Positions 6,287-38,012 of a DNA stretch of 46,168 bases are shown one piece after another (the stretch's first letter is position 1; each line of letters begins with the position of its first letter). The DNA is from an uncultured Muribaculaceae bacterium. Lineage in GTDB: Bacteria; Bacillota_I; Bacilli_A; RF39; UBA660. A program made the translations under genes and the position numbers. The stretch is taken from contig CAYJHI010000001.1 of the NCBI GenBank assembly GCA_964370085.1, positions 1 to 46,168 of the forward strand. The letters run 5' to 3'. The notes beneath the pieces were generated by a model. The model worked only from the letters and a program-made list of their open reading frames with translations, was not told where the DNA came from and did not search any database.

Positions 6287-6315
6287 TTGATATATCTTTG
6301 TATATATATTACAAT
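6287..6315 (+). promoter_or_regulatory. Sigma-A-type promoter of the Bro-N/DinD-like gene
   Basis: TTGATA, a 17-nt spacer, then TACAAT. Confidence 0.5.
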
Positions 6316-6336
6316 ATTTGCAGAACAAGTCAATCT

Positions 6337-6351
6337 GTTACAAATTGTAAC
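6337..6351. promoter_or_regulatory. 15-nt palindrome GTTACAAATTGTAAC (candidate operator), copy 1
   Basis: Perfect 7+1+7 inverted repeat between the putative -10 element and the RBS. The same motif, GTGACAAATTGTCAC, recurs inside the gene at 6575-6589. Confidence 0.4.
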
Positions 6352-6382
6352 CGTTTTATTAATTATCAGAAAGGAATTAGAT

Positions 6383-7237
6383 ATGAAATCAGAAAAATTA
6401 CAAATAATAAATAAAATATTCAATAACACTGAAATAAGAAGTGTATGGAATAAGGAAGAAGAAAAATACTATATATGTGTAGTAGATATTGTTGGTATAG
6501 TATCAGAAAGTAAAGAAGGCAGAAAATATTGGAACAAATTAAAACAAAGACTTAAAGAGGAAGGTAATCAAACGGTGACAAATTGTCACCAGTTGAAATT
6601 AAAATCTAAAGATGGAAAATATCGTTTAACTGATGTATGTGATATAGAAGGAATGTTCAGAATAATACAATCAGTTCCAAGTAAAAATGCTGAACCTATA
6701 AAACAATGGTTAGCTAAATTAGGAAGTGAAAGAATAGATGAAACATTTGATCCTTCCCTAGCCTTACAACGAGCAATAGATACTTATAGAGCTAAAGGTT
6801 ATGATGAAAATTGGATAGCAAAAAGAATTAAATCTTTACAAGATAGAAAACAACTAACTGATGTTTGGAAAGACGGAGGAATTAAAGAAGGTATTGAGTT
6901 TGCTATTCTTACAAATGAAATTTATAAAGAATGGTCTGGAATGAAAGCAAGTGAATATAAAGAACTTAAAGGTCTTAGAAAAGAATCTTTAAGAGATAAT
7001 ATGACTGATATAGAAGTTGCTTTAACAGACTTAGGAGAAATAGCAACAAGAGAACTTGCTAAAAAGCATAACCCACAAGGTTTAGAACAAAATAAAAAAA
7101 TCGCTAAAATGGGAGGTAATACTGCTAAGGTAGCTCGTGAAGATTTAGAGGCGAAACTTGAAACTTCTGTAATTAGCAAAAGTAATGCTTTAAATTATCA
7201 ATATATTGATAATAAAGAAAAGATTGAAAATAAGTAA
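6383..7237 (+). CDS. Bro-N domain / DinD-like (phage antirepressor-family) protein
   Basis: Start taken at ATG 6383 (MKSEKLQ..., AAAGGA RBS). The track start at 6287 is an AT-rich read-through extension. The N-terminus FNNTEIRSVWNKEEEKYYICVVDIVGIV follows a Bro-N pattern. The C-terminal half (NAEPIKQWLAKLGSERI...YRAKGY...WIAKRI...LTDVWK...LRDNMTDIE) resembles the DinD/BRO family seen in phages and islands. Confidence 0.65.
   Translation: MKSEKLQIINKIFNNTEIRSVWNKEEEKYYICVVDIVGIVSESKEGRKYWNKLKQRLKEEGNQTVTNCHQLKLKSKDGKYRLTDVCDIEGMFRIIQSVPSKNAEPIKQWLAKLGSERIDETFDPSLALQRAIDTYRAKGYDENWIAKRIKSLQDRKQLTDVWKDGGIKEGIEFAILTNEIYKEWSGMKASEYKELKGLRKESLRDNMTDIEVALTDLGEIATRELAKKHNPQGLEQNKKIAKMGGNTAKVAREDLEAKLETSVISKSNALNYQYIDNKEKIENK
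6574..6590. repeat. Palindrome GGTGACAAATTGTCACC, copy 2 of the GTNACAAATTGTNAC motif
   Basis: Perfect 8+1+8 inverted repeat within the Bro-N/DinD-like CDS (encodes TVTNCHQ), 238 bp centre-to-centre from copy 1. Confidence 0.4.
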
Positions 7238-7264
7238 TTTTACTTGAGCGAAAAAATCATGCAA

Positions 7265-7391
7265 CTGAACTGTTCGGAAATTCCGAATAGTTGAACTATA
7301 AAGATTTTCTTTACAGTTCAAATTTAAGTTATTTGAATTTTTCGAATAACGGATATTCAAATATTAAGTATACAAGAAAACCTTGTATACT
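7265..7391. repeat. Cluster of nested and consecutive inverted repeats
   Basis: Five elements: TGAACTGT (7265-72) with ACAGTTCA (7313-20); central palindrome AACTGTTCGGAA-A-TTCCGAATAGTT (7268-7292); TTCAAAT (7318-24) with ATTTGAA (7331-37), followed by TTTTT; ATTTGAAT (7331-38) with ATTCAAAT (7355-62); AGTATACAAG-aaaac-CTTGTATACT (7367-7391). Confidence 0.6.
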
Positions 7392-7448
7392 AGAAAATAT
7401 TGTGTGTTTACTCTATTCGTACAGTTCTTTGTCTCATTTCTCCTGATA

Positions 7449-7847
7449 ATGTATTTGGATAAAGAAATTAAAACTTGTAATATAACGAATGTCTCTATAC
7501 CAAATACAGTTATTAGAATTGAAAATTTAGCGTTTTATAATAACAAAATCTCTAATCTTAATTTAGGAGGTGGTATTCAATTTATTGGAATGAGTGCATT
7601 TCATACTAATAATCTCATTTCAGTAATTCTTCCTTCTAGTTTAAAAGATATTTGGTCTTTTGCATTTAGAGATAATGACTTGCATGAAATTGTTATACCT
7701 GAGAGTGTTTCTACTATTGGTAATAGGGTATTTTGGGAGAATCCTAATATGGAATATTTGTATATAGATGGTAAAGCTAGTTATAGTGATTTTGCCTCTA
7801 TTGAAAGTGATTGGTATTATAGTGGTACAGTTGTTTTTAGACCTTAA
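7449..7847 (+). CDS. Leucine-rich repeat (BspA/LRR_5-type) protein, probably a truncated remnant
   Basis: Repeats such as IPNTVIRIENLAFYNN, IQFIGMSAFHTNNLISVILPSSLKDIWSFAFRDNDLHEIVIPESVSTIGNRVFW. No signal peptide and no convincing RBS. About 130 aa, whereas BspA-like proteins are usually several hundred aa. The track start at TTG 7383 lies inside a hairpin. Confidence 0.5.
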   Translation: MYLDKEIKTCNITNVSIPNTVIRIENLAFYNNKISNLNLGGGIQFIGMSAFHTNNLISVILPSSLKDIWSFAFRDNDLHEIVIPESVSTIGNRVFWENPNMEYLYIDGKASYSDFASIESDWYYSGTVVFRP

Positions 7848-10074: not shown

Positions 10075-10657
10075 TAAAGTAGAACTTGATGTATTAGCAG
10101 TTAGAAGAAGTCAATATCCAACTAAAATTCGACCTGAATTTTTATTAGTGGGACGTAGTAATGTAGGTAAAAGTAGTTTTATAAATACAATTATGGGAAG
10201 AAAAGCATTGGCAAAGATATCTTCTCGTCCTGGTAAAACACAAACACTTAATTTTTATTTAGCAAATGATGAGTTTTATTTCGTAGATGTTCCTGGTTAT
10301 GGATATGCTGCTGTTAATAAGAAGACACAACAAAAGTTTGGAATGATGATAGAAGAGTATTTAGAAAAAAGAGAACAATTAAAAAGAGTATTCATGTTAG
10401 TTGATTTTAGGCATAAACCTAGTGAAGATGATGTGATTATGTATAATTTTTTAAAGTATTATAATATTCCTGTTACTATAGTTGCAACTAAAGTAGATAA
10501 AATAGGTACAACAAAAAGAGAAAAACAAACTAAGATTATCAATGATACACTAGATTTAGTAATGGGAGATGATTTAATATTATTCTCTAGTGTTACTAAA
10601 ATGGGTGCAGATAAAGTACTTAATAAATTAGATGATTTAGTTATAGAGACTATTTAG
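10064..10657 (+). CDS. engB: Ribosome biogenesis GTP-binding protein EngB/YsxC
   Basis: TTG start. MKINKVELDVLAV...GRSNVGKSSFIN...KTQTLNFY...DVPGYGYA...TKVDK is collinear with B. subtilis YsxC. Overlaps nrnA by 11 nt. Confidence 0.92.
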   Translation: MKINKVELDVLAVRRSQYPTKIRPEFLLVGRSNVGKSSFINTIMGRKALAKISSRPGKTQTLNFYLANDEFYFVDVPGYGYAAVNKKTQQKFGMMIEEYLEKREQLKRVFMLVDFRHKPSEDDVIMYNFLKYYNIPVTIVATKVDKIGTTKREKQTKIINDTLDLVMGDDLILFSSVTKMGADKVLNKLDDLVIETI

Positions 10658-10668
10658 TCTTTTTTTTA
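10646..10668 (+). terminator. Rho-independent terminator of engB
   Basis: AGACT-attt-AGTCT hairpin plus a T8 run, overlapping the stop codon. Confidence 0.6.
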
Positions 10669-10712
10669 TTTCTTTTTTTAAACTTTAACATATTATATCT
10701 TAGGTGATTAAA

Positions 10713-11195
10713 GTGCGTTTAGAATTAGTTAGCGATAATGAGTTTGTTGTTTTTATTAATAGTTTGTATTTTCCTATTGATGAAGGTTTAGATAAGCAAA
10801 ATTTATCTAGAACTATTAAGTCATTACTTTCTAAGTTAGATAAAAATTATAATTTATCTTTAAAAGGTTATTATAAAGTAAGTATATATCATAATAAGAA
10901 AATAGGAAGTTATTTGGTATTAGAAAAGTTAGAAGATTTTATTATAGATGTTACTACTATTGATTTGAGAGTAATAGCTTATTTAAATGAAGAGTTTTTA
11001 TTAGAGTTTGATGATTATGAAAAGATACCTTTAGGTAAAAGTATCTTCTATCTTAATAATATGTATTATTTAAGTGTTAATGATGTTAGTGATGAAGAGA
11101 TATTATCACTTTGTGATTGGAGTAGGATTGTATATGGGGATGTTGTTTCTAATATTAAAAGAGTTGGGAAGAAATTAAAAACAATTGCTCTATAG
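10713..11195 (+). CDS. MecA/YpbH-like adaptor protein candidate (short)
   Basis: Preferred start is GTG 10713, 5 nt after AGGTGA (the track start is 10704). The N-terminus MRLELVSDNEFVVFI resembles the MecA start (MEIERINEHTVKFY). The C-terminal part EEFLLEFDDYEKI...IFYLNNMYYLSV...WSRIVYG resembles the MecA C-terminal domain pattern (FeDFEdvI...LY..g.YYL...EYG). By-eye match only. Confidence 0.45.
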   Translation: MRLELVSDNEFVVFINSLYFPIDEGLDKQNLSRTIKSLLSKLDKNYNLSLKGYYKVSIYHNKKIGSYLVLEKLEDFIIDVTTIDLRVIAYLNEEFLLEFDDYEKIPLGKSIFYLNNMYYLSVNDVSDEEILSLCDWSRIVYGDVVSNIKRVGKKLKTIAL

Positions 11196-12665
11196 AACAA
11201 TTGCTAGCATATTATTGGCACCTCTATTAACTACTTTAGATAATGTTTGTTGTAATTTATATCTAATGTTGTCTGGCATTAGAGATATTTTAGATTGGAT
11301 TCCTTCTTGGACAATTACATCTAAGCTTCTTCCAAATATTTCACTTTTCCAAATATTAGATGGTTCTGTTTCGTAATCTTTCATTAAATAATTTATTAAC
11401 TCTTTACTTTGAACTTCACTTCCTATAATAGGCTCAAATGTTGAATTGACATCTACTCTTATCATATGAATAGATGGAGCGACTGCTTTTAGTTTTACAC
11501 CATATCTTGATCCTTGTTTTATTATTTCAGGAGTTTCTAATTTCATGTCTTGTAGTGAAGGTGTTGCTACTCCGTATCCTGTTTGTTTAACCATTTTTAG
11601 GGCATATTTTATTTGATCATATTCTTTTTTAGCTTCGTTATATTCTTGGAATAAAGATAATAATTCAGCTTTATTTTTAACATCTATTTTGATAATGTCA
11701 GTTAATACTTGATTATATAAATGGGATGGTGCTGTTAAATTAATAGTAACAGTTCCAGTAGATGGATCTACTTCAGATAAATAAGCTTTTTCTATTAATT
11801 CATTATTAGTAAAATGTTTTATAATATATTCTACGTCTTTTAATTTATCTATTTCAATAACACTTTCTTTGATTGAATCGATATAACTTTTTTTAATAGG
11901 GTGGTCATGATTTAAAATAGCAATCCATTCGGGCATGTTTATTTGTACTTCTAAAATAGGAAATTCATATAGTGCTTCTTTTAGGATTGTATAGATGTCT
12001 TTTTCGTTCATTCCTTCTATGTTGATAGGAAGTACTGGTACTTGATGTTCTTCTTTTAAAGAGTTTGCTAATCTTTCTGTTTCTGGTAGCATAGGGTGTG
12101 TTGTATTTAATACTACAATAAATGGTTTGTTAATATCTTTTAATTCATTTATTACTCTTGTTTCAGCTTCGATATAATCATTTCGTTTAAACTCTCCAAT
12201 AGATCCATCTGTTGTTACTACTATACCTATAGTTGAATGATCTTTAATTACTTTTTCAGTGCCTAGTTCTGCTGCTTCTACAAATGGTATTACATCATCA
12301 TACCATGGTGTTTTGACCATTCTTGGTCCGTTATCATCTTCGGCCCCTTTAGCATCATCTATTAGATATCCTACACAGTCAATCATTCTTATTTGGCAAT
12401 CAAAATCATCTATTTTTATTTTTGCAGCATTGTTAGGTACAAACTTCGGTTCAGTAGTCATAATAGTTTTTCCGCCTGCACTTTGTGGTATTTCATCTAA
12501 TGCTCTTTTTCTTTCATATTCATCTTCAATGTTAGGAACAATTAATGTTTCAACCACTTTTTTTATGAATGTACTTTTACCAGTTCTCACTGCTCCAACG
12601 ACACCTAGATAGATATCACCGCCAGTTCTCTTAGCGATGTTTTGTATAATTTCATATTTTTCCAT
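11190..12665 (-). CDS. spoIVA: Stage IV sporulation protein A (spore coat morphogenetic ATPase)
   Basis: 491 aa. Starts MEKYEIIQNIAKRTGGDIYLGVVGAVRTGKSTFIKK (Walker A) and is collinear with B. subtilis SpoIVA in length. AAAGGTGA RBS. Its 3' end overlaps the convergent gene by 6 nt. Confidence 0.95.
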   Translation of the reverse strand: MEKYEIIQNIAKRTGGDIYLGVVGAVRTGKSTFIKKVVETLIVPNIEDEYERKRALDEIPQSAGGKTIMTTEPKFVPNNAAKIKIDDFDCQIRMIDCVGYLIDDAKGAEDDNGPRMVKTPWYDDVIPFVEAAELGTEKVIKDHSTIGIVVTTDGSIGEFKRNDYIEAETRVINELKDINKPFIVVLNTTHPMLPETERLANSLKEEHQVPVLPINIEGMNEKDIYTILKEALYEFPILEVQINMPEWIAILNHDHPIKKSYIDSIKESVIEIDKLKDVEYIIKHFTNNELIEKAYLSEVDPSTGTVTINLTAPSHLYNQVLTDIIKIDVKNKAELLSLFQEYNEAKKEYDQIKYALKMVKQTGYGVATPSLQDMKLETPEIIKQGSRYGVKLKAVAPSIHMIRVDVNSTFEPIIGSEVQSKELINYLMKDYETEPSNIWKSEIFGRSLDVIVQEGIQSKISLMPDNIRYKLQQTLSKVVNRGANNMLAIVL

Positions 12666-27516: not shown

Positions 27517-28551
27517 ATGGTTATTAAATTTAGAAGTAATACTTTAGAAATGATTAAAGAAATAAAACGAATGCAGGCCAAAGTTTATAGTGGTGATGAA
27601 GATTTTGATTATGATAAAGAAATTAAAGAGGCACTTAGAGAAATAGAATGCTTGGAAAAACTAATTGATAATAAAGAAGATACTTATATTGAAGAAGTTG
27701 ATCCTGATTTTTTGAATTTTGTTGCTGCGATGCCAGATATACCTGTTATGTCTGTTGAGAATATGGATAGCGATGAGTTGATTGAGAGTTCTGAATATGA
27801 GGATTATGCTAACTTTGGTATGGAGTTATTAAATAATGTTGATGAAAATAAAGCGAGGGAACTTATTAATTTTTTGATGCTTTGTTATTATGAAGAATTT
27901 TATAATGAAGAAAATTTTTTGGTAGATTGTATTAAGTCGTATGATGGTGAAGATAATATTTCTTTCATTAGAGAATATCCAAATACTATTTATCATTTGT
28001 TAACTAATTTTGAAATGATTTCGGCTCTTTCAATTAGTGATTTAGTTGTAATGAAAAAACAAGTTGTTAAAGATAGTAAACAGAGTAGTTCTTTTTTTAG
28101 AAGTTTGATGCCTTTATATTTTACTGATTTAGTAGTTTTAGAAATGCAACTTTTATATGAAACTAGTGAGGATTTTTCTTTAGAAGAGGAGGAATTTTTA
28201 AACTCTTTAAATATTGGTAGTGATAATTTAATTAATGATTCGTTATTGTTATTTAATTCTTATGGTAATGAGATGAAGAAATTTTTATTACCTTCATTAT
28301 TGAATGGATTTTATGATTATACTAAAGGTAAAAGAAATTTTATTTCTATTTCCAAATTGGAACGTAAATTAATTAGAGACTGTGAGAAAAATGAAAATAT
28401 AGTAGAAGAAATTATGAATAACGAAGAGGATATGCAGGTTGTTCTTCGTGGTTATTTTAATAACAATAAATCTTATTATTCTAAAGAATTACCTAATCAT
28501 GAGTTTGAAACGGATCATTTAGCAATTACTAAAACAATAATAAAAAAATAG
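27517..28551 (+). CDS. Acidic protein of unknown family, paralog A (344 aa)
   Basis: Good RBS. Shares collinear blocks with the next gene: M.IKF..N, L.YYE(E/D)FYN..(E/D)NF, EYPN..(Y/F)HL, YFT(D/E)L and the C-terminal PNH..ETDH.AI.KT. Confidence 0.8.
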   Translation: MVIKFRSNTLEMIKEIKRMQAKVYSGDEDFDYDKEIKEALREIECLEKLIDNKEDTYIEEVDPDFLNFVAAMPDIPVMSVENMDSDELIESSEYEDYANFGMELLNNVDENKARELINFLMLCYYEEFYNEENFLVDCIKSYDGEDNISFIREYPNTIYHLLTNFEMISALSISDLVVMKKQVVKDSKQSSSFFRSLMPLYFTDLVVLEMQLLYETSEDFSLEEEEFLNSLNIGSDNLINDSLLLFNSYGNEMKKFLLPSLLNGFYDYTKGKRNFISISKLERKLIRDCEKNENIVEEIMNNEEDMQVVLRGYFNNNKSYYSKELPNHEFETDHLAITKTIIKK

Positions 28552-28561
28552 GAGTACATTT

Positions 28562-29542
28562 ATGATATTGAAATTTAAAATTAATTGTTATGAAATTGCA
28601 AATGAAATAGATGCTTTATGTAGTTCTATTGATGATGATATTGAAGAAAGAATTTCTGATTCTAATGACGATGATGATTGTGATGAGTATGATGAAGAAC
28701 TACGAGAATTATCTAAAAGTGATATGAGTGCTGATGATACTTTGGAAGATGTTAGTTATGATGATGTTTTTGTTACTTTTTCAGAATATCTAATCAAAGA
28801 GTATGATACTAATAAATTGGCAGTTATAGATACTATTTGTTTTTTAACTCTTTTGTACTATGAAGATTTTTATAATGATGTTGATAATTTTTTTATAGAT
28901 TCTTTGGATGATTTAGATAGTAGTTCTATTGCTCCTTTTGTGTTAGAAGAATATCCTAATATCTTTTTTCATTTAATGAATCATTATGATAATTTGAATT
29001 TGTTATCTCTTTCTAATATGATTGTTAGGCGAGAAACAGTAATAGAAAAAAGTGGTAAGGATAAAGAATTTTTTACTAAATATAGACCTGAGTATTTTAC
29101 AGAGCTTTCTTTATTGAAAATGCGTTTTGTATATGAAAATGGTCCTTACTATTCATTAATAGAAGATTTATATGTTGATGAGATTGATCAATTTGATAAT
29201 CTTTCTATTGAGGATTGTGTTCGTACATATAAAAATATTTCTAAGGATGATAAACCGGTTATGTTTGGCAGAATGTGGAAAGATTTTTTAGAGTATACAG
29301 AAGGTAAACAATATTTTACTAAACTTAGTATAGAAGAAATAACTTTACTTAATATGATTAAAGAGAATGAAACTGTTAATTTAGAATCTTTTGAGAATTC
29401 TTCTATGATGAATACTTTGATACAGGGGTATTTAGATAATAGTGCATCTTATTTTGAGAAAAAGTTTCCTAATCATAATTATGAAACTGATCATATTGCT
29501 ATTGAAAAAACATTTTCTAAAAAGAAAAAAGATACTATATAA
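28562..29542 (+). CDS. Acidic protein of unknown family, paralog B (326 aa)
   Basis: Starts 10 nt after paralog A with a GGAG RBS. Shares the same conserved blocks (LLYYEDFYNDVDNF, EEYPNIFFHL, PNHNYETDHIAIEKT). D/E-rich N-terminal third. Confidence 0.8.
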   Translation: MILKFKINCYEIANEIDALCSSIDDDIEERISDSNDDDDCDEYDEELRELSKSDMSADDTLEDVSYDDVFVTFSEYLIKEYDTNKLAVIDTICFLTLLYYEDFYNDVDNFFIDSLDDLDSSSIAPFVLEEYPNIFFHLMNHYDNLNLLSLSNMIVRRETVIEKSGKDKEFFTKYRPEYFTELSLLKMRFVYENGPYYSLIEDLYVDEIDQFDNLSIEDCVRTYKNISKDDKPVMFGRMWKDFLEYTEGKQYFTKLSIEEITLLNMIKENETVNLESFENSSMMNTLIQGYLDNSASYFEKKFPNHNYETDHIAIEKTFSKKKKDTI

Positions 29543-31224: not shown

Positions 31225-31393
31225 ATTTTTTCCTTTCCTTTAAGTTAATTTTATAATATAAAGAACTAACCTATAAGATTATACTATTTTTTTCAAGTTT
31301 TGTCTATTAGTTTGCTTATATTAGTAAAAAAGAGTGTAAATTATAATAGGAAATGATATACTAGATATATCTATAAATCAGGGAGGATCATGT

Positions 31394-32572
31394 ATGGGAT
31401 TATTTAATAAAATTAAAAATATGTTTGCTAAAAAGGATGTTAGTGTAGAAGAAGAACATATTGAAATAGATAAAAATGAAGATGTTGAAGAGGAATCTGT
31501 CGAGATAGCAGAAGAGTCTGTTAATGTAGTAGAAGATGTTTCGTCTAAAAATAGCGAAGAAGAAATAGTAGATGCTGTTTATGAAGAAATTGAAGAAGAA
31601 GATTACGAAGATAATGAGATTGAAGAAGTTAGTGGTGAAACTTTTGAAGAAGTGGAAATTTATGAAAAAGGTTTAACTAAATCACGTGAGAGTTTTGTTT
31701 CTAAATTAGTTAATTTGACAAATCGTTATAAAAAAATTACTGATGATTATTTTGATGAATTAGAAGAAGTTTTAATTATGGCTGATATTGGTGTTAATAC
31801 AGTTATGGATTTTATAGATCGTTTGAAAAAACGTGTATATGAAGAAAAAATTACTGATACAGAACTTCTTAATGAATTGATTGTTGATGAGTTATTTATT
31901 ATATATGTTGATGATAGTGTTCTTTCAACTAAAATTAATTATCAGGAAGAAGGACCTACTGTTATTTTGATGGTTGGTGTTAATGGAGTAGGAAAGACAA
32001 CTACAATTGGTAAATTAGCTGCTAAAGAAAAAGATATGGGTAAAAAAGTTTTATTAGTAGGTGCGGATACGTTTAGAGCAGGTGCAACTGAACAATTAAA
32101 TGAATGGGCTAAGAGAATTGGAGTTGACTACTATGGTGGTAGTGAAAATGCTGATCCTGCTTCTGTTACTTTTGATGGTGTAAAAAAAGCTAATGAGGAA
32201 AATTATGATGTTGTCTTTGTTGATACGGCAGGTAGATTACAAAATAAAGTTAATTTAATGAAAGAATTAGAAAAAATCAACAGTGTAATGAGTAGAATTG
32301 TTGATAACGCTCCACATGAGACATTGTTAGTAATTGATGCTACTACTGGTCAAAATGGAATATCTCAAGCAAAGAGTTTTAAAGATATAACTGGTGTTAC
32401 CGGAATAGTGCTTACTAAATTAGATGGAACTGCCAAAGGTGGGATTGTTTTAGCTATTAAAGAAGAAGTTGATATACCGGTTAAGTTTATTGGATTTGGT
32501 GAATCTAAGAATGATTTACAAGTATTCGATGTTGAAAAATATATATATGGTTTATTTAAGGAAATGATGTAA
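31394..32572 (+). CDS. ftsY: Signal recognition particle receptor FtsY
   Basis: Acidic N-terminal region followed by an NG domain: [41 protein letters not shown]. Confidence 0.96.
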
Positions 32573-32805
32573 TGAAAAAGAAGATAGGTTTATATTTACA
32601 GGGGATTTTTACTTTATTAGCAATTGTATTTGCAATTGTGTCTATTTTTAATAATGATTTTATTATTGTTATTCAAATGCTTTTAGGTCTTGATTTATTA
32701 GCTATGGCGTATAATAATCAGGTCTTATATAAAAGAAGGCTATTTACTATTTTGTATGTTGTGGCAGCTTTAGTAGTTATTGTTATGTCACTAATTGGAG
32801 TGTGA
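32572..32805 (+). CDS. Small two-TM membrane protein (77 aa)
   Basis: Start overlaps the ftsY stop (TAATG). Two hydrophobic helices. Confidence 0.55.
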   Translation: MKKKIGLYLQGIFTLLAIVFAIVSIFNNDFIIVIQMLLGLDLLAMAYNNQVLYKRRLFTILYVVAALVVIVMSLIGV

Positions 32806-32811
32806 TTGTAA

Positions 32812-33099
32812 ATGGATAAGACAATTTATTTAAATCAGTTGTATGATTTTTATCAAGATTTGCTTACAGATAAACAACGTAATTATTTTGAAAGATATTA
32901 TTTTGATAATTTATCGCTTAGTGAAATAGCAGAAGAATATGGGGTTAGTCGTAATGCTGTTTCTAAACAGTTGGATATTATAGAAAAGAAGTTATCTGAT
33001 TATGAAGGTAAATTAAATTTATCTTTAAAAAAGAGTAAAGTATTAGAATTAGTTTCTAATGATGAATTGCTTTATAATAAGATTAATGATATATTGTAA
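32812..33099 (+). CDS. ylxM: YlxM/p13-like putative DNA-binding protein (UPF0122)
   Basis: LYDFYQDLLTDKQRNYFERYYFDNLSLSEIAEEYGVSRNAVSKQL is collinear with B. subtilis YlxM. Confidence 0.9.
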   Translation: MDKTIYLNQLYDFYQDLLTDKQRNYFERYYFDNLSLSEIAEEYGVSRNAVSKQLDIIEKKLSDYEGKLNLSLKKSKVLELVSNDELLYNKINDIL

Positions 33100-33119
33100 A
33101 AGAATAAGAGGGTGTAATT

Positions 33120-35105
33120 ATGTTTGATAGAATAGTGTATCTTAGTGATAAAATTGCTCATGTTAAATTGAAAGAAAATGTTTCTTTAGCAGTTAATTTA
33201 ATGAATCTTCATATTGTATTTGAGGATCAGGATAAGAAAATATTAGGGGAAATTGATGATCTTAATGAGGGTGTTGCTAAAGTTAGAATGCTAGGGGAAT
33301 ATGTTAATGGTTCTTTATATAGTGGTGTTATTAGAAAACCTACTATGAATGCTACTATTAGAGTTATTTCTAAAGAAGAGATTCCTTCTATTTTAGGGGA
33401 AGATACTGAAGGTAATATGTTGTTGGGAGTTAGTCCGTTTTATAATGATTATCCGGTATATTTTGATGTTAATAATTTCTTTAGTAATCACTTTGCAATA
33501 TTAGGTAGTACTGGTAGTGGGAAGTCTTGTGGTATTGCAAGGGTTATTCAGAATATTTTTACTAGTAAGAATATTGAACCATATAAGGCTAATTTGATAA
33601 TGATTGATTCTTCTGGGGAATATTATAATGCTTTTAATGCTATTAATCAGATTAATCCTAAATATAATTATCGTTTTTTAACTACTAATGTTAGTGAAGA
33701 AAAAGGGGAAAGATTAGTTTTACCTATTTGGTTATTAGATTCTACTGATATATCACAGTTATTGTCTGTTACTAATCATGCTCAATTACCAATTATAGAA
33801 AGAATGCTTAAGTTAGCACTTATTTTTGGTGAAGATGATAGTAAAGCTTTAAATTATAAGAATCATTTAATTGCGAAAGCTATTATGTCAATTTTATATT
33901 CTAATGAGACTTCTTCTAATAAGAGAAATGAAGTATTTACTATATTAGCTAATTGTTCAACGGGACAGTTTAATTTAGAATCACCTGTACAAGGTATAGG
34001 ATATGTTAGAAAACTTAGAGAGTGTTTCTTAATTGACTCTAGTGGTAATTTTAGTGAGAGTGTATTATTAACTGAATATGTTTCATCTTTTATAAAACAA
34101 GAATACGATAATTATGAGCCTAGTGAGGATGTTTATTATACATTAGAAGATTTAGAAAAAGCACTTAACTTTACATTAATTAGTGAAGGTTGGTTAAGAA
34201 ATTCTAATACTTATGGTGATGCGATTACTTTGAGAGTTAGATTACACTCATTAGTTATTAGTGGGTATTCTAAGTTCTTTAAATGTGATAAATATATTAC
34301 TAAAGAAGAATATGTACAAAGTTTATTAGAGAAAGATGGTAGAAAGTATCAGTTTGTTAATATAAACTTAGATGATGTAGATGATGACTTTGCTAAAGCT
34401 TTAACTAAGATTTATTCTAATATTTTATTTAAGTTTACTAAAGATTTAACTCAAAGAGCGACTATTCCTATACATATATTAGTAGAGGAAGCTCATCGTT
34501 ATATTCAAAATGATGATGATAGATATTTATATGGATATAATATCTTTAATAGAATTGCTAAAGAAGGTAGAAAGTATGGATTGTTATTAGGGCTTATTTC
34601 ACAGAGACCTGTTGAATTATCTGATACTGTTATATCTCAGTGTTCTAACTTTATGATATTTAAGATGAATCATCCTGTAGATGTAGAATATATAAGAAAA
34701 ATGATTCCTAATATTAGTGATGAAATAGTAGAGAAGCAGAAGACGTTGCAGTCTGGTACTTGTTTAGGATTTGGTAGAGCATTTAGAATTCCTTTGATAG
34801 TTAAAATGAAAATGCCTGATCCAGAACCTAGTAGTGGTAACTGTGATGTTGTTAAAACATGGAAGCAAGCTGTTGTTCAACCTGGTATTATTAATCCGGT
34901 TATTAATGCTCAACCAGTAAACTCAGTTATTAATAATGTAAATAGTGTTTCGGCAGGTACTGGGGCAGTAGATAGTAGTATTAATACGGTTATAGATGAA
35001 GTTGCTGCTTCTGAAGATATTACTAATATATTACAAAGGTATAATGATAGTGGTCAAACTATTAATTTAGTAGATATTCCTGTTGTTAATGAAGAAAACA
35101 ATTAA
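33120..35105 (+). CDS. HerA/FtsK-clade (DUF87-like) P-loop ATPase, partnerless
   Basis: 661 aa. Beta-rich N-terminal ~120 aa (HAS-barrel-like). Walker A GSTGSGKS (aa 129-136), long helical insert, Walker B HILVEEAH (aa 452-459), and GLISQRP plus SQCSNFMIFKM downstream. ~90-aa N/V/I-rich tail. AGAGGGTG RBS 5 nt upstream. Starts 20 nt after ylxM with no terminator in between. Confidence 0.8.
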   Translation: MFDRIVYLSDKIAHVKLKENVSLAVNLMNLHIVFEDQDKKILGEIDDLNEGVAKVRMLGEYVNGSLYSGVIRKPTMNATIRVISKEEIPSILGEDTEGNMLLGVSPFYNDYPVYFDVNNFFSNHFAILGSTGSGKSCGIARVIQNIFTSKNIEPYKANLIMIDSSGEYYNAFNAINQINPKYNYRFLTTNVSEEKGERLVLPIWLLDSTDISQLLSVTNHAQLPIIERMLKLALIFGEDDSKALNYKNHLIAKAIMSILYSNETSSNKRNEVFTILANCSTGQFNLESPVQGIGYVRKLRECFLIDSSGNFSESVLLTEYVSSFIKQEYDNYEPSEDVYYTLEDLEKALNFTLISEGWLRNSNTYGDAITLRVRLHSLVISGYSKFFKCDKYITKEEYVQSLLEKDGRKYQFVNINLDDVDDDFAKALTKIYSNILFKFTKDLTQRATIPIHILVEEAHRYIQNDDDRYLYGYNIFNRIAKEGRKYGLLLGLISQRPVELSDTVISQCSNFMIFKMNHPVDVEYIRKMIPNISDEIVEKQKTLQSGTCLGFGRAFRIPLIVKMKMPDPEPSSGNCDVVKTWKQAVVQPGIINPVINAQPVNSVINNVNSVSAGTGAVDSSINTVIDEVAASEDITNILQRYNDSGQTINLVDIPVVNEENN

Positions 35106-35116
35106 ATATTATAGTT

Positions 35117-35151
35117 AAAAACCTTATTTGCTTGATAGATAAGGTTTTTTC
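35117..35151 (+). terminator. Rho-independent terminator after the HerA-like gene
   Basis: AAAACCTTAT-ttgcttgatag-ATAAGGTTTT hairpin plus a T-run. Confidence 0.8.
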
Positions 35152-35160
35152 TTATATAAT
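35132..35160 (+). promoter_or_regulatory. Sigma-A promoter of ffh, embedded in the preceding terminator
   Basis: TTGATA (in the hairpin loop), a 17-nt spacer, then TATAAT. The ATG at 35178 follows a GGTGA RBS, which implies a very short leader. Confidence 0.55.
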
Positions 35161-35177
35161 AGATTATGGTGATATAA

Positions 35178-36476
35178 ATGTTTGAAAGTTTAGGAGATCG
35201 CTTACAGAATGCGATTCATAAGATAAAAGGTTATGGTAAAATAACAGAAGATAATATTGGAGAAATGCTTAGAGAAATTAGATTGGCATTATTAGAAGCG
35301 GATGTTAACTATAAAGTAGTTAAAGAGTTTACTAATAAGGTTAAAGAAAAATCTTTAGGTGAGGATGTACAAAAGAGTATTAAACCTGGTGATTTGTTTG
35401 TTAAGATTGTTAAAGATGAACTTACTGAATTATTAGGAGGAGAGAGTTCTCCTTTAAATACTAAGGGTAATCCTGCGATATTGATGTTAGTTGGTTTACA
35501 GGGTAGTGGTAAAACTACAGCGATTGGGAAGTTATCTAATTTACTTCGTAAGAAACATGCTAAGAAGCCTTTGATGGTTGCGTGTGATATTTATCGTCCT
35601 GCAGCAATTGATCAGTTAAAACAACTGGGTAAGCAGCTTAATATTGAAGTATATGATGAGGGTACTAATAATCCAGTAGAAACTTCTAAGAATGCTATTA
35701 AGTATGCTAAGGATAATGGATATGATTATGTTTTAATTGATACAGCGGGTAGATTACATGTTGATGATACTTTAATGGATGAAATTAAAAATATAGAAGA
35801 GGAAGTTAAACCTCAAGAAGTATTATTAGTTATTGATTCAATGATGGGTCAAGATGCTATTAATGTTATTAATGGGTTTAATGATGTAATGGATTTAACG
35901 GGAGTTATTCTTACTAAGTTAGATGGTGATACTAGAGGTGGTGTAGCACTTTCTGTTCGTCATTTAACTAATGTTCCAATTAAATTTATTGGGGTTAGTG
36001 AGAAATTAGATGGTATTGAATCATTTGATCCTGAGAGAATGTCTGGTCGTATATTAGGAATGGGTGATATTGTTTCTTTAGTAGAAAAAGCTCAAGAATC
36101 AATTGATCAAAAAGAAGCAGAGAAAACGGCTAAGCGTTTACAAAAAGGGAAATTCGATTTGGAAGATTTCTTATCTGCAATGAGACAGGTTCGTAAACTT
36201 GGACCACTGGAAAATATTATTAAGATGTTACCTGGAGCTGCTAAGATGGGTCTTAACAAAGTACAAATTGATCCTAAACAAATGGCTCATATAGAAGCCA
36301 TTGTCTTATCAATGACTGTTGAAGAAAGACGTAGTCCTGATATTATTAAAGCAACTCGTAAACAAAGAATTGCTAAAGGTGCTGGTTTACAAGTGCAAGA
36401 TGTTAATCAATTACTAACTCGTTTTGAAGAAATGAAAAAGATGATGAAGCAATTTGGTGGGAAGATGCCTTTTTAG
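35178..36476 (+). CDS. ffh: Signal recognition particle protein Ffh
   Basis: GLQGSGKTTAIGKL, DTAGRLH, TKLDGDTRGG, and a Met-rich M domain (KMLPGAAKMG...MKKMMKQFG). Confidence 0.97.
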   Translation: MFESLGDRLQNAIHKIKGYGKITEDNIGEMLREIRLALLEADVNYKVVKEFTNKVKEKSLGEDVQKSIKPGDLFVKIVKDELTELLGGESSPLNTKGNPAILMLVGLQGSGKTTAIGKLSNLLRKKHAKKPLMVACDIYRPAAIDQLKQLGKQLNIEVYDEGTNNPVETSKNAIKYAKDNGYDYVLIDTAGRLHVDDTLMDEIKNIEEEVKPQEVLLVIDSMMGQDAINVINGFNDVMDLTGVILTKLDGDTRGGVALSVRHLTNVPIKFIGVSEKLDGIESFDPERMSGRILGMGDIVSLVEKAQESIDQKEAEKTAKRLQKGKFDLEDFLSAMRQVRKLGPLENIIKMLPGAAKMGLNKVQIDPKQMAHIEAIVLSMTVEERRSPDIIKATRKQRIAKGAGLQVQDVNQLLTRFEEMKKMMKQFGGKMPF

Positions 36477-36525
36477 GTATCTTTCTTTTTTATGGGCGAA
36501 TACATATTCCTCTTTTAGAGATATT

Positions 36526-36534
36526 CATACTATA
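36526..36534 (+). promoter_or_regulatory. Mother-cell-type -10 element candidate upstream of the cotD-like gene
   Basis: CATACTATA fits the sigma-E/K -10 patterns (CATAcanT and CATAnnnTA). I found no convincing -35 element at the right spacing. Confidence 0.3.
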
Positions 36535-36552
36535 GATTAGAGGAGGTAGTTT

Positions 36553-36897
36553 ATGTTTTATAATAATGCTCGTCAAAACGAGATGAGTGCGACTTTTAGT
36601 GGTGATAATAATATTATTGACAACGATATGAATATCGATGTTAATATGATGATGCAAGCAGATATGCCTGCTATGCCAATGCCTATGCCAGGTACTATGC
36701 AACAACCTGTTTATGAACCTATGCAAGAAAAACTTGTTCATAAGACTATCATGCACGAAGTTCCGCATGTATGTCCTATCAAAACGCGTATAGTTAATCA
36801 TCATGTTTATAAACATACTTATAGACCTGAGTATAGTTGTTGTGAAGAAAACATGGTTGAAAATATTCAATGCGGTTCTTGTTGTCAATACAAATAA
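36553..36897 (+). CDS. cotD: CotD-like spore coat protein
   Basis: Strong GAGGAGG RBS and its own terminator. The His/Pro/Cys-rich C-terminal half (VHKTIMHEVPHVCPIKTRIVNHHVYKHTYRP..CC...CGSCC) resembles B. subtilis CotD (IVPHIHPQHTTNVNHQHFQHVHYFPH...CC). Met/Pro-rich N-terminal part. Confidence 0.6.
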   Translation: MFYNNARQNEMSATFSGDNNIIDNDMNIDVNMMMQADMPAMPMPMPGTMQQPVYEPMQEKLVHKTIMHEVPHVCPIKTRIVNHHVYKHTYRPEYSCCEENMVENIQCGSCCQYK

Positions 36898-36901
36898 TGT
36901 C

Positions 36902-36925
36902 AACTAACCTTTTTGGTTAGTTTTT
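36902..36925 (+). terminator. Rho-independent terminator of the cotD-like gene
   Basis: AACTAACC-ttttt-GGTTAGTT hairpin plus a T-run. Confidence 0.8.
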
Positions 36926-37011
36926 CTTTTTGTCAATTTTTGTCTAATTTTACACTATCGCTTGCGTTAATGTAAAATATCTTTTATTCTTAATATAGGG
37001 AGTGTGATACA

Positions 37012-37215
37012 ATGATTTATCCGTCTATTGATAAATTACTTAACATAGTAGATTCTAAATATGAATTAGTTCATATTGCTGCTAGAAGAAGTAAAGATAT
37101 GACGAAAACAGATTTTTATCAAATGCCTATTAACAAATACCAAAGTGATAAAAACATTGGTAAGGCGCTAGAAGAAGTAGTTGAAGGATGTATAACTGTT
37201 AAAGAAAAAGAATAA
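37012..37215 (+). CDS. rpoZ: DNA-directed RNA polymerase subunit omega
   Basis: MIYPSIDKLLNIVDSKYELVHIAARRSKDM matches B. subtilis RpoZ ([30 protein letters not shown]). Confidence 0.9.
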   Translation: MIYPSIDKLLNIVDSKYELVHIAARRSKDMTKTDFYQMPINKYQSDKNIGKALEEVVEGCITVKEKE

Positions 37216-37256
37216 AATTCTTTTTTTTTAGTGCTATAATATATATAGGAGGCTGT

Positions 37257-38012
37257 ATGATTAGAATATTAAAATTTAAAAAAATGAAAAATAACCAATA
37301 TAAATTGTCATTAGATAATAATATGGATTTATTATTATATGAAGAAGTTATTTTAAAAGAAGAATTGTTATTATCTAAAGTAATAAAAGATTTAGATAAA
37401 TTATTAGAAATTAATCAAAAGTATGATGTTTATTATACAGCATTAAAATATCTTGCTAAGCGTAATAAAACAAGTAAAGAATTATCTGATTATTTAAAGA
37501 AGTTAGAGTATCCAACTGATTTAATTGATTCTACTATTAAATTATTAGTTGAGCAGTCATACTTAAATGATTCTTTATATGTAGAAGCTTATATTAATCA
37601 AAAGATTGCAATTAGCTCTAGTGGTCCTTCTAAAATAAGAGATGAACTTTTAAAGAAGGGTGTTAGTGAAGATGTTATAAGCGATAAACTTTCTGTTTTT
37701 ACTTATGTATTACAATTAGAAAAGGTTAATCATATTATAGAGAAACTTATTAAAACAAATAGAAGTAAAAGTTCTTTTCAACTTAAGAATAAAATAATTA
37801 ATTATTTAGTTCAACAAGGTTATAGTGTTGATCTAATTAAAAGTGAGATTTCTAATTATTCTTTTAGTGATGAGAAAGATTTGGTTTTAAAGGAATATAA
37901 TAAAATTAAAAAACGTTTATCTCGTAAGTATAGTGATAAAGAATTAGAGTTTAAAATTAAACAGCAGTTATATAAAAAAGGTTTTAAATTAAATGATTAT
38001 GATGAAATATAA
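37257..38012 (+). CDS. recX: Regulatory protein RecX
   Basis: 251 aa of repeated three-helix units. Contains YYTALKYLAKRNKTSKELSDYLKK and SGPSKIRDELLKKGV. Confidence 0.7.
   Translation: MIRILKFKKMKNNQYKLSLDNNMDLLLYEEVILKEELLLSKVIKDLDKLLEINQKYDVYYTALKYLAKRNKTSKELSDYLKKLEYPTDLIDSTIKLLVEQSYLNDSLYVEAYINQKIAISSSGPSKIRDELLKKGVSEDVISDKLSVFTYVLQLEKVNHIIEKLIKTNRSKSSFQLKNKIINYLVQQGYSVDLIKSEISNYSFSDEKDLVLKEYNKIKKRLSRKYSDKELEFKIKQQLYKKGFKLNDYDEI

What the first reader, a model, noticed from the sequence alone, without database searches (positions are those of the whole stretch)
33120..35105. Partnerless HerA/FtsK-clade ATPase inserted between ylxM and ffh in the SRP operon
Seen in the sequence:
- A 661-aa ORF with a beta-rich N-terminal ~120 aa, Walker A GSTGSGKS (aa 129-136), a ~300-aa helical insert and Walker B HILVEEAH (aa 452-459).
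- A GLISQRP (aa 491-497) block typical of HerA/DUF87 ATPases, followed by an ~90-aa Asn/Val/Ile-rich low-complexity tail.
- It starts 20 nt after ylxM with its own RBS and no intervening terminator, so it looks co-transcribed with ftsY, the 77-aa membrane ORF and ylxM.

Established knowledge:
- In Bacillus-type genomes ylxM directly precedes ffh.
- HerA-family ATPases normally work with an adjacent partner: NurA in end resection, or Sir2 or DUF4297 nucleases in anti-phage systems.
- No such partner gene is present on either side here.

Inference: this is either a lineage-specific recruitment of a hexameric translocase-type ATPase to the membrane-targeting operon, or a minimal single-gene module such as a defence, DNA-pumping or sporulation function. 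I do not know of a described function for this arrangement.
Basis: partly seen in the sequence, partly recalled or inferred. Interest (0 to 1): 0.72.

Follow-up and report, generated by a model that had tools for sequence, protein, structure and literature searches.

The report
Partnerless core-genome HerA ring ATPase
A ring-forming, DNA-pump-type ATPase whose closest relatives work in pairs as anti-phage weapons is kept here without a partner as a strongly conserved housekeeping gene at the end of the ftsY-ylxM operon of an uncultured gut bacterial lineage, and its job is still unknown.

Summary
ORF 33120..35105 encodes a 661-aa HerA/DUF87 ATPase with intact Walker A, Walker B and QRP arginine-finger motifs and a disordered 75-aa tail, 20 nt after ylxM.

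It is not an incidental insertion:
- ylxM lies directly upstream in 36 of 40 informative species-level loci whose orthologues are 50-81% identical to the window protein.
- dN/dS of the core is 0.09, like ffh (0.07) and ftsY (0.11).
- Identity co-varies with Ffh and RNase J.

The functional tie to SRP is not supported. Deeper orthologues (30-45% identical) sit in other conserved housekeeping sites: PP2C-herA-sepF-divIVA, yqeG-yqeH-herA, rpmH|herA-dnaA and rmuC-herA. ffh follows at variable distance and appears to have its own promoter.

No SIR2 homologue was found in the window plus 123 loci (1.16 Mb). In every locus annotated, the flanking genes are housekeeping, transposase or unannotated ORFs, none matching a nuclease or NADase family. 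The four nearest relatives examined outside the clade (32-35% identical) are all canonical SIR2-HerA pairs in defence islands or on plasmids.

Best reading: a vertically inherited, partnerless offshoot of the defence-type HerA branch, most likely a hexameric DNA translocase or ring scaffold in chromosome or division biology. That function is inferred. New variant of a known kind; moderate interest.

The parts
31394..32572 (+). ftsY (SRP receptor), first gene of the inferred operon
   Evidence: Pfam SRP54 E 7e-78 and SRP54_N. Found upstream of the herA-like gene in 34 related loci.
32572..32805 (+). 77-aa small membrane-protein ORF that overlaps the ftsY stop by one base
   Evidence: ORF and hydrophobic sequence. 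tblastn finds relatives at the same position in 13 related loci at 30-67% identity. No Pfam or NCBIfam family.
32812..33099 (+). ylxM (UPF0122 helix-turn-helix protein)
   Evidence: Pfam UPF0122 E 2e-26. NCBIfam YlxM 95.8 bits against a cut-off of 80. Directly upstream of herA in 36 of 40 informative loci.
33120..35105 (+). herA-like gene, 661 aa, whole ORF including the stop codon
33120..33434 (+). N-terminal beta-barrel (HAS-barrel-like), aa 1-105
   Evidence: AlphaFold strands E2-E105 at pLDDT about 85. Full-length Foldseek alignments to HerA structures.
33435..33764 (+). RecA-like core, first part (aa 106-215), with Walker A GSTGSGKS at 33504..33527
   Evidence: G129, G132, G134 and K135 are invariant in alignment A1.
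33765..34334 (+). alpha-helical bundle domain inserted in the RecA core (aa 216-405)
   Evidence: Helices H222-H403 in the model. Same domain plan as the SIR2-partnered HerA described in PMC11472057. Conserved at 0.73-0.81 mean column identity across 39 species.
34335..34874 (+). RecA-like core, second part (aa 406-585). Walker B HILVEEAH at 34473..34496, GLISQRP (QRP arginine-finger motif) at 34590..34610, and the closing C(D/N)Vxx(T/R)W helix.
   Evidence: This is the most conserved stretch, 0.83-0.91.
34875..35102 (+). disordered V/N/I/S-rich tail (aa 586-661) ending in ...QTINLVDIPVVNEENN
   Evidence: pLDDT 27-35. dN/dS 0.65 against 0.09 for the core. Absent from most orthologues. A short hydrophobic motif is enriched near the C-terminus of related tails.
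35117..35150 (+). AT-rich hairpin (AAAACCTTAT...ATAAGGTTTT) followed by a T-run; terminator-like end of the ftsY-ylxM-herA unit
   Evidence: Sequence. RNAfold gives -15.8 kcal/mol for 35101-35165. It escaped the consensus scan because the stem has only 2 G-C pairs. Function is inferred.
35132..35160 (+). promoter-like site TTGATA-17-TATAAT (11 of 12) ahead of ffh
   Evidence: This is a consensus match only, and the total number of promoter-like matches in the region equals chance.
35178..36476 (+). ffh (SRP54), probably a separate transcription unit
   Evidence: Pfam SRP54, SRP_SPB and SRP54_N. Variable distance from herA in related loci.

Best explanation
The gene encodes a catalytically intact HerA-family ring ATPase. 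It has an N-terminal beta-barrel, a RecA-like core split by an alpha-helical bundle, and a C-terminal disordered tail. It belongs to a clade of HerA proteins that have no adjacent effector and are inherited vertically as single-copy core-genome genes in uncultured, low-GC gut Bacilli/Mycoplasmatota-related lineages. In the window's lineage it is the last gene of a tightly packed ftsY-(small membrane ORF)-ylxM-herA operon, and ffh downstream is probably transcribed on its own.

Shown: family membership, fold, intact ATPase motifs, strong purifying selection, conserved synteny, no adjacent SIR2 homologue or recognisable effector gene, and sister position (on a rough tree) to bona fide SIR2-HerA defence ATPases.

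Inferred: it assembles into a hexamer that uses ATP to move along or hold double-stranded DNA, and it serves a housekeeping role in chromosome handling, either clearance or segregation at division, or recombination and repair. It does not serve SRP targeting or phage defence. Also inferred: in the window's subclade the hypervariable tail, with its conserved terminal peptide, tethers the ring to another cellular protein.
For: Family and fold:
- Pfam DUF87 at 73.6 bits and PADLOC HerA at E 5e-107.
- PDB sequence hits to DUF4297-HerA, SIR2-HerA and Sulfolobus HerA.
- AlphaFold model with pLDDT 80.5 and pTM 0.77. Foldseek gives full-length matches at probability 1.0 to 9c1m, 8xau, 8yhx (TM 0.76), 8wld, 8sub and 4d2i.

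Active enzyme under selection:
- The Walker A glycines and lysine are invariant in A1, which includes relatives down to 28% identity.
- Among the 39 species orthologues, the Walker B EEAH, RKYG and SQRP positions are invariant or nearly so.
- dN/dS of the core against L001 is 0.09, compared with 0.07 for ffh and 0.11 for ftsY.

Vertical inheritance:
- 43 species-level loci were recovered.
- HerA identity correlates with Ffh (r 0.91), RNase J (0.89) and YlxM (0.81) identity.
- GC content equals the flanks.
- The window is dense in core genes: EzrA, RecA, RNase Y and J, DnaD, RecU, PBP1, SpoIVA.

Partnerless:
- ylxM is directly upstream in 36 of 40 loci.
- Genes downstream are variable.
- Four SIR2 reference proteins find nothing in the window plus 123 loci, 1.16 Mb.
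- In deeper lineages the neighbours annotated are housekeeping genes.

Relation to defence HerAs:
- In a neighbour-joining tree of 75 representatives the partnerless clade is monophyletic and sister to a clade containing P0136 and P0137.
- Both of those have an overlapping SIR2_2 gene upstream in defence or mobile islands.
- The best plasmid relatives (32% identical) are also SIR2 plus ATPase pairs.

Chromosome or division flavour:
- herA-sepF-divIVA is conserved in 25 loci.
- rpmH|herA-dnaA-dnaN and rmuC-herA in 3 contigs.

Tail as tether:
- It is disordered, nearly neutral, and present in only some subclades.
- The motif [PAT][LI][VIL][DSNT][ILFV] occurs 95 times against 7.2 +/- 2.8 in shuffles, and within the last 20 aa in 72 of 102 tails.
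Against: - No experiment or direct computation shows DNA binding, hexamer formation or any cellular role.
- The neighbourhoods do not share one theme. Besides sepF-divIVA, dnaA and rmuC there are yqeG-yqeH, a BY-kinase, an LtaS-like sulfatase, cysS, hisS and M16 peptidases. The DNA and division flavour is therefore suggestive only, and each arrangement may be a single ancestral event.
- Some deep members have degenerate catalytic motifs. P0125 has Walker B DN and lacks the QRP arginine. P0133 has EK and VQKV. In those lineages the conserved role cannot be an ATP-driven motor.
- An unlinked partner elsewhere in the genome cannot be excluded from 14-kb loci.
- NurA and DUF4297 were not searched with reference sequences. 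Their absence rests on the identity of the flanking genes that were annotated, and ORFs with no family match could hide a novel partner.
- The tree is a rough neighbour-joining tree without support values. Only 4 relatives outside the clade had their context read, and a fifth member of the sister clade, P0134, showed no adjacent SIR2 on its 3.9-kb contig.
- The tail-motif enrichment is inflated because the tails are related by descent.
- SpoIVA in the window suggests a sporulating-type lineage. From my own knowledge such lineages normally keep SpoIIIE, which would weaken the idea that this protein replaces FtsK/SpoIIIE.
Confidence: 0.55

Rival explanations
1. SRP-pathway accessory. The ATPase was recruited to work with FtsY, YlxM and Ffh, for example as a membrane-proximal translocase or a regulator of co-translational targeting. 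The HerA/FtsK superfamily also contains protein-secretion ATPases such as EssC and VirB4.
For: Tight operon packing with ftsY, the membrane ORF and ylxM. ylxM is directly upstream in 36 of 40 loci across 50-81% identity. A 42%-identical orthologue, P0125, also directly precedes ffh. In L018 herA stays next to ffh after ftsY-ylxM were lost from upstream. Weak NCBIfam hits to VirB4-like and EccC models.
Against: Equally conserved non-SRP positions exist in sister lineages: sepF-divIVA in 25 loci, yqeH in 13-18, plus dnaA and rmuC. Within the clade, L033 (after cysS), L025 and L029 have herA away from SRP genes. The herA-ffh distance is variable, with unrelated genes inserted. RNase J and other flanking genes are conserved in order too, so the linkage may be general synteny. 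All solved close structural relatives act on DNA.
Confidence: 0.12
2. Residual or minimal anti-phage module. This would be a defence HerA that lost its adjacent SIR2, works with an unlinked effector, or acts alone, for example by ATP depletion or DNA unwinding.
For: The closest characterised relatives are defence HerAs. The sister clade is SIR2-HerA. The PADLOC profile match is strong at 357 bits.
Against: It is below the NCBIfam anti-phage HerA equivalog cut-offs (168 against 850 bits, 153 against 800). It is embedded in core genes, not in a defence island. Synteny is stable, and its divergence parallels that of Ffh and RNase J. dN/dS is as low as for ffh. The clade has no plasmid relative above 32% identity and essentially no phage relatives. 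No SIR2 homologue was found in 1.16 Mb of related loci.
Confidence: 0.1
3. Sporulation-linked DNA or protein pump, expressed with ftsY during spore formation.
For: The window encodes SpoIVA and a CotD-like ORF just after ffh, a sub-threshold Pfam hit conserved in 7 loci. A distant orthologue lies near cotE. From my own knowledge, B. subtilis ftsY has a sporulation-specific promoter.
Against: No sporulation promoter or regulator was identified here. Most contexts are vegetative housekeeping genes. The link rests on co-occurrence in the same genomes only.
Confidence: 0.08
4. Incidental insertion of a decaying or selfish gene between ylxM and ffh.
For: In Bacillus-type genomes ylxM directly precedes ffh (established knowledge). 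Other material has been inserted between herA and ffh in several species.
Against: Full-length intact ORFs were recovered in 38 of the 39 loci tested, and the other one runs off its contig end. Two further loci hold only part of the gene at a contig end. L031 shows a frame change in both herA and ffh, most likely an assembly error. The catalytic motifs are invariant or nearly so across the species orthologues. dN/dS is 0.09. No repeats, integrase or compositional shift mark the locus.
Confidence: 0.02

Closest known systems
SIR2-HerA (Nezha) anti-phage system, HerA subunit (PDB 8wld, 8sub, 8j4u; PMC11472057, PMC11514289)
   Same: Same domain plan: beta-barrel, RecA-like core, inserted alpha-bundle. 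Same catalytic motifs. This is the nearest sequence clade outside the family, at 32-35% identity.
   Different: No SIR2 gene adjacent or anywhere in 124 related sequences. The beta-barrel is about 28-50 aa shorter. There is no C-terminal arm domain; the protein has a disordered tail or ends at about aa 585. It has a core-genome context and vertical inheritance instead of a defence-island or plasmid location. It falls below the NCBIfam anti-phage HerA cut-offs.
DUF4297-HerA anti-phage system, HerA subunit (PDB 9c1m, 8xau, 8ziq)
   Same: Best PDB matches by sequence (E 5e-42) and by fold (E 7e-31). Similar length, about 570-585 aa for the core.
   Different: None of the flanking genes annotated matches a nuclease family. 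Only 17-22% identity in structural alignments. Housekeeping context.
Archaeal and bacterial HerA-NurA DNA end-resection motor (PDB 4d2i; PMC3326311, PMC9960219)
   Same: HerA fold and the predicted hexameric double-stranded-DNA translocase mechanism. A chromosomal housekeeping role is plausible. In Thermus thermophilus, mutants of the chromosomal HerA-like genes TTC0147 and TTC1430 are UV- or heat-sensitive (PMC5365140).
   Different: None of the flanking genes annotated is nurA, mre11 or rad50. NCBIfam HerA equivalog scores are far below cut-off (121 against 800, 107 against 970). The alpha-bundle is much larger than in Sulfolobus HerA.
FtsK / SpoIIIE / SftA chromosome translocases
   Same: Same superfamily, with P-loop, Walker B and an ATQRP-like arginine-finger motif. 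A soluble ring ATPase tethered through a disordered linker would resemble SftA in architecture (SftA comparison from my own knowledge). One sister lineage places the gene directly before sepF-divIVA.
   Different: The Pfam FtsK_SpoIIIE match covers only about 70 aa around the P-loop at 30 bits. No transmembrane N-domain and no folded C-terminal DNA-recognition (gamma) domain are seen in the model. It has a HerA-type beta-barrel and alpha-bundle instead.
E. coli YjgR / DUF853 (HerA-like C-terminal domain family); comparison from my own knowledge, not tested here
   Same: A chromosomal, partnerless HerA-like P-loop ATPase of unknown function. It is a precedent that members of this superfamily exist without an adjacent effector.
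   Different: A different Pfam family. No DUF853 hit was reported for this protein. Unrelated taxa and context.

Membership tests
HerA / DUF87 ATPase family (Pfam PF01935) | Profile match above the curated gathering score | tested here: met
   73.6 bits against a cut-off of 23.2, aa 110-259.
HerA / DUF87 ATPase family (Pfam PF01935) | N-terminal beta-barrel plus a RecA-like core with an inserted helical bundle | tested here: met
   AlphaFold model. Full-length Foldseek matches to HerA structures at probability 1.0 and TM up to 0.76. Domain plan taken from PMC11472057.
HerA / DUF87 ATPase family (Pfam PF01935) | Walker A, Walker B with catalytic Glu, and the QRP arginine finger | tested here: met
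   GSTGSGKS 129-136, HILVEEAH 452-459, GLISQRP 491-497. These positions are invariant or nearly so across the 39 species orthologues.
HerA / DUF87 ATPase family (Pfam PF01935) | Hexameric ring with a DNA-sized pore; DNA-stimulated ATPase | not testable with these tools
   Only a monomer could be modelled. No biochemistry.
SIR2-HerA (Nezha) defence system | SIR2-family NADase gene immediately upstream, usually overlapping herA | tested here: not met
   The upstream gene is ylxM. tblastn with 4 SIR2 proteins finds nothing in the window plus 123 loci. True pairs were seen in L057, L061, L062 and L063.
SIR2-HerA (Nezha) defence system | NCBIfam anti-phage HerA equivalog score | tested here: not met
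   168 against 850 bits and 153 against 800 bits.
SIR2-HerA (Nezha) defence system | Sporadic distribution in defence islands or mobile elements | tested here: not met
   Core-gene neighbourhood, conserved synteny and co-divergence with Ffh and RNase J.
DUF4297-HerA defence system | Adjacent DUF4297 (Cap4-like) nuclease gene | tested here: not met
   No such Pfam hit among the ORFs scanned in the window or among the neighbours listed for related loci. No DUF4297 reference sequence was searched.
HerA-NurA end-resection machine | Adjacent nurA, often with mre11 and rad50 | tested here: not met
   Neighbours are ylxM and ffh. No NurA family appears among the Pfam results for neighbours. HerA equivalog scores are far below cut-off. 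No NurA reference sequence was searched.
FtsK/SpoIIIE translocases | Full FtsK_SpoIIIE motor-domain match, N-terminal membrane anchor and C-terminal gamma domain | tested here: not met
   The Pfam match is limited to aa 109-178. The model shows a beta-barrel N-terminus and a disordered C-terminus.
Firmicute SRP locus (ftsY ... ylxM-ffh) | ftsY, ylxM and ffh present and co-oriented | tested here: met
Firmicute SRP locus (ftsY ... ylxM-ffh) | herA-like gene functionally part of the SRP pathway | not testable with these tools
   Only linkage could be examined. Linkage to ylxM is conserved in this clade (36 of 40 loci) but not in sister lineages.

The most novel reading that the evidence does not exclude
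A defence-type HerA motor, sister to SIR2-HerA, was domesticated (or is the housekeeping ancestor of the defence branch). It now works as a soluble, divisome- or membrane-tethered chromosome translocase, an SftA/FtsK-like function built on a HerA chassis. Lineage-specific disordered tails with terminal peptides dock it to division or membrane-targeting proteins. That would explain why the gene sits next to sepF-divIVA, dnaA or ftsY in different lineages.
Probability: 0.2. Interest if true: 0.75.

Novelty: new variant of a known kind. Interest (0 to 1): 0.5.

Why it matters
All HerA ATPases with a worked-out role act with an adjacent partner: NurA, SIR2 or DUF4297. This clade keeps the motor alone and intact, under purifying selection as strong as on ffh. 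It occurs in a lineage that is abundant in human and animal gut metagenomes; one 90%-identity cluster of this family alone was seen on 316 contigs. If its role is in chromosome handling, it would be a new housekeeping use of the HerA chassis in bacteria. It would also be a clear case of traffic between immune and core cellular machinery. It marks an unannotated core gene ('DUF87 domain-containing protein') in organisms that are still uncultured.

Tried and rejected
- A conserved downstream partner: rejected. Genes between herA and ffh differ between species. L009 has a beta-lactamase-like gene and a LytTR two-component pair; L040 has an acyltransferase and a hybrid kinase.
- A ParA/MinD neighbour in L049: rejected. 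NCBIfam identifies it as a polysaccharide tyrosine autokinase.
- The two unannotated paralogous ORFs at 27517-29542 as hidden partners: rejected. They lie beyond the oppositely oriented RNase J gene and are found only in the two closest species.
- A roughly 190-aa protein upstream of herA in the sepF lineage: it is a lipoprotein with no Pfam family, present in only 8-11 loci.
- A structured RNA in the operon: no Rfam match in 29000-38000.
- Thermus TdtA as a partnerless precedent: rejected, because it has NurA upstream.
- Literature searches for HerA+ylxM, HerA+RF39, RF39+FtsK and DUF87+SepF returned nothing relevant.
- A nine-member alignment was too divergent for the metagenome scan. A four-member alignment worked.
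- I could not test whether genomes of this clade lack FtsK, SpoIIIE or SftA, because no whole genomes are accessible with these tools.
Full report
**1. Observation**

The ORF at 33120..35105 (+) is real and reads exactly as described. It is 661 aa with Walker A GSTGSGKS at aa 129-136, Walker B HILVEEAH at 452-459 and GLISQRP at 491-497. It starts 20 nt after ylxM behind a GAGGGTG ribosome-binding site.

ftsY (31394..32572) overlaps a 77-aa membrane ORF (32572..32805) by one base. That ORF ends 6 nt before ylxM (32812..33099). No terminator-like site lies between the ftsY stop and herA. FtsY, YlxM and Ffh are confirmed by Pfam and NCBIfam.

After the herA stop there is an AT-rich hairpin with a T-run (35117-35150; -15.8 kcal/mol for the surrounding 65 nt). 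It overlaps a TTGATA-17-TATAAT promoter-like site at 35132-35160 ahead of ffh. I therefore infer that herA closes the ftsY unit and that ffh is transcribed separately. This is inference; the number of promoter-like matches in the region is no higher than chance.

**2. What the protein is**

- It passes the Pfam DUF87/HerA gathering score and matches a PADLOC HerA profile at E 5e-107. It stays far below every NCBIfam HerA equivalog cut-off, whether anti-phage, archaeal repair or CedD.
- The best PDB sequence relatives are the HerA subunits of DUF4297-HerA and SIR2-HerA and Sulfolobus HerA.
- An AlphaFold model built on 19 sequences (pLDDT 80.5, pTM 0.77) has five parts:
  - a beta-barrel at aa 1-105;
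  - a RecA-like core at about aa 106-215 and 406-570;
  - an inserted alpha-bundle at about aa 216-405;
  - a short closing helix at 577-582;
  - a disordered tail at 587-661.
- Foldseek aligns the whole chain to HerA structures at probability 1.0.
- The plan is the one described for SIR2-partnered HerA, minus its C-terminal arm domain (PMC11472057).

**3. It is conserved, not incidental**

- The protein database holds thousands of relatives, and the top 120 are 66-81% identical.
- A scan of GTDB species genomes gave 43 loci from uncultured Bacilli, Mycoplasmatota incertae sedis and 'Firmicutes CAG:884'-type MAGs, with the match 50-90% identical (81% at most over the full length). From memory I would place these in the RF39-like orders; I did not verify that.
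- ylxM is directly upstream in 36 of 40 loci with usable flank, usually preceded by ftsY, and in 13 loci by a relative of the small membrane ORF.
- Across 39 orthologues the whole 580-aa core is conserved, alpha-bundle included, and the catalytic motifs are invariant or nearly so.
- Against the closest species, dN/dS is 0.09 for the core, 0.07 for ffh and 0.11 for ftsY.
- HerA identity tracks Ffh, RNase J and YlxM identity (r 0.8-0.9), as expected for vertical descent.
- GC content matches the flanks.
- The window is a dense core-genome region: EzrA, ThiI, AckA, SpoIVA, Der, DnaD, Nth, PBP1, RecU, RecA, RNase Y, RNase J, RpoZ and RecX.

**4. The SRP link is positional, not demonstrably functional**

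- ffh follows herA at anything from 70 nt to about 5 kb, with unrelated genes in between, or is not within 6 kb at all.
- Inside the clade, herA is found after cysS (L033), after a peptidase-like gene (L025), next to a transposase (L029), and after a pilin-like gene while still preceding ffh (L018).
- An exhaustive HMMER search of 1.84 billion representatives found only about a dozen full-length 50%-identity clusters of this type, at 30-45% identity. Their contexts differ from the window's:
  - herA-sepF-divIVA (P0123, P0127);
  - herA-ffh-...-rpoZ (P0125);
  - rpmH|herA-dnaA-dnaN (P0130);
  - rmuC-herA (P0128);
  - yqeH-herA (P0124);
  - a BY-kinase followed by herA (P0133);
  - an LtaS-like sulfatase (P0129).
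- A metagenome scan added 80 loci. SepF is the next gene in 25 of them and DivIVA the one after in 20, within asnS-PP2C-herA-sepF-divIVA-ileS. yqeG-yqeH precede herA in 13-18.
- Each lineage therefore has its own frozen housekeeping position. The only common denominator is 'single gene among core genes'.

**5. Partnerless, but sister to a partnered defence clade**

- Four SIR2 proteins used as tblastn queries find nothing in the window plus 123 loci, 1.16 Mb.
- No nuclease-like family appears among the neighbours I annotated. I had no NurA or DUF4297 reference sequences to search with, so their absence rests on the flanking genes that could be identified.
- In a neighbour-joining tree of 75 representatives the partnerless proteins form one clade on a long stem. 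Its sister is a clade that includes P0136 and P0137. This tree is rough and has no support values.
- Both P0136 and P0137 have an overlapping SIR2_2 gene upstream, inside islands with restriction-modification, PLD-helicase, kinase or recombinase genes.
- A third member of that sister clade, P0134, sits on a 3.9-kb contig with no SIR2 next to it, so not every member is shown to be partnered.
- The best plasmid relatives (32% identical; Enterococcus, Lactobacillus) are also SIR2 plus ATPase pairs. Phage genomes hold essentially no relatives.

**6. The tail**

- Most orthologues end at aa 579-590. Long tails, giving proteins up to about 940 aa, occur in the subclade around the window, and independently (Q/P/N-rich) in the sepF-linked lineage.
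- The window's tail is predicted disordered and evolves almost neutrally, with dN/dS 0.65.
- In 102 distinct tails of the window's subclade, a short motif such as ...TPLVSITPDDMLE (in the window ...INLVDIPVV...) is about 13-fold enriched over shuffles. It lies in the last 20 residues in 72 of them. Shared descent inflates this figure.
- A disordered linker ending in a conserved peptide is the usual design of a tether. That reading is inference.

**7. Mechanism and rivals**

My best account is a hexameric, ATP-driven DNA translocase or ring scaffold with a housekeeping role in chromosome handling. It is inherited vertically, expressed from the ftsY-ylxM operon, and in some subclades tethered by its tail.

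- Shown: family, fold, intact motifs, selection, synteny, lack of an adjacent SIR2 homologue or recognisable effector gene, and the relation to SIR2-HerA.
- Inferred: the ring, the DNA substrate and the cellular role.
- Against a simple motor model, two deep members (P0125 and P0133) have lost the catalytic Glu and the QRP arginine.
- Rivals, with my confidence in each: SRP accessory (0.12), residual defence module (0.10), sporulation-linked pump (0.08) and incidental insertion (0.02).
SpoIVA in the window suggests a sporulating-type lineage, which from my own knowledge would be expected to keep SpoIIIE.

**8. Novelty**

The only database name is 'DUF87 domain-containing protein', and full-text searches found no description of this clade or arrangement. 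It is a member of the HerA family but fails the defining partner-adjacency feature of all three characterised HerA systems. I class it as a new variant of a known kind.

Interest is moderate at 0.5. It is a real, well-conserved unknown in abundant gut bacteria, with an interesting evolutionary link between defence and housekeeping. There is no mechanism-level surprise yet, and no cultured host.

Noticed in passing
window 32572..32805 (+): A 77-aa ORF for a small membrane protein lies between ftsY and ylxM and overlaps the ftsY stop by one base. Relatives (30-67% identical) sit at the same position in 13 related species, and L040 has a 102-aa membrane ORF there. It has no Pfam or NCBIfam family. 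In three sepF-lineage loci (L071, L078, L079) an unrelated-looking 85-89-aa two-helix membrane ORF lies directly upstream of herA.
   Followed up: partly
window 27517..28551 and 28562..29542 (+): Two tandem paralogous ORFs (344 and 326 aa) encode acidic proteins with no Pfam family. L001 and L035 each match both at one place, so the window's lineage may carry a recent tandem duplication.
   Followed up: partly
window 36553..36897 (+): A 114-aa His/Cys/Met-rich ORF just after ffh has a sub-threshold Pfam hit to spore coat protein CotD (E 0.006). It is conserved after ffh in 7 related loci. A 137-aa ORF on the opposite strand (36490..36903) overlaps it and is probably spurious.
   Followed up: partly
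window 11190..12665 (-): A full SpoIVA (all three Pfam domains; E 6e-109 for the ATPase domain) is present in a genome of about 28% GC related to lineages filed under Mycoplasmatota. This lineage therefore carries at least this sporulation gene.
   Followed up: no
window 6287..7847 (+): A BRO-N domain protein and a BspA-type leucine-rich-repeat protein sit among core genes, between ndk and ackA. This may be a small accessory insertion.
   Followed up: no
window 36902..36922 (both strands): A symmetric hairpin (AACTAACC-loop-GGTTAGTT) with T-runs on both sides lies after the CotD-like ORF. It looks like a bidirectional terminator.
   Followed up: no
P0125 (locus L059 406..3237) and P0133 (locus L049 805..2553): These are natural variants of the partnerless HerA with degenerate catalytic motifs. 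P0125 has Walker B LLIDNAH and VGEVSS in place of ISQRP. P0133 has ILEKAD and VVQKV. P0125 also carries a roughly 360-aa acidic disordered tail and still directly precedes ffh.
   Followed up: partly
P0003 (752 aa), aa ~221-300: A 39-aa block (HSQLPIIERMLKLALVFSQEDMDANAYKNHLIAKAIMTI) occurs twice in a row inside the alpha-bundle. This is likely an assembly artefact or a recent internal duplication.
   Followed up: no
L031 6001..7781 and 10518..11817: Both herA and ffh are split into two reading frames in this MAG contig. Frameshifts in two essential-looking genes point to assembly or sequencing errors, not pseudogenes.
   Followed up: no
L064-L091, C-terminal tails of the sepF-linked HerA proteins: The tails are Gln/Pro/Asn/Met-rich and share a short motif (D/N)V(N/S)xIMxQQ 10-20 residues after the core. 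This differs from the window lineage's terminal PL(V/I)S(I/L)TP motif, so disordered extensions seem to have arisen more than once.
   Followed up: partly
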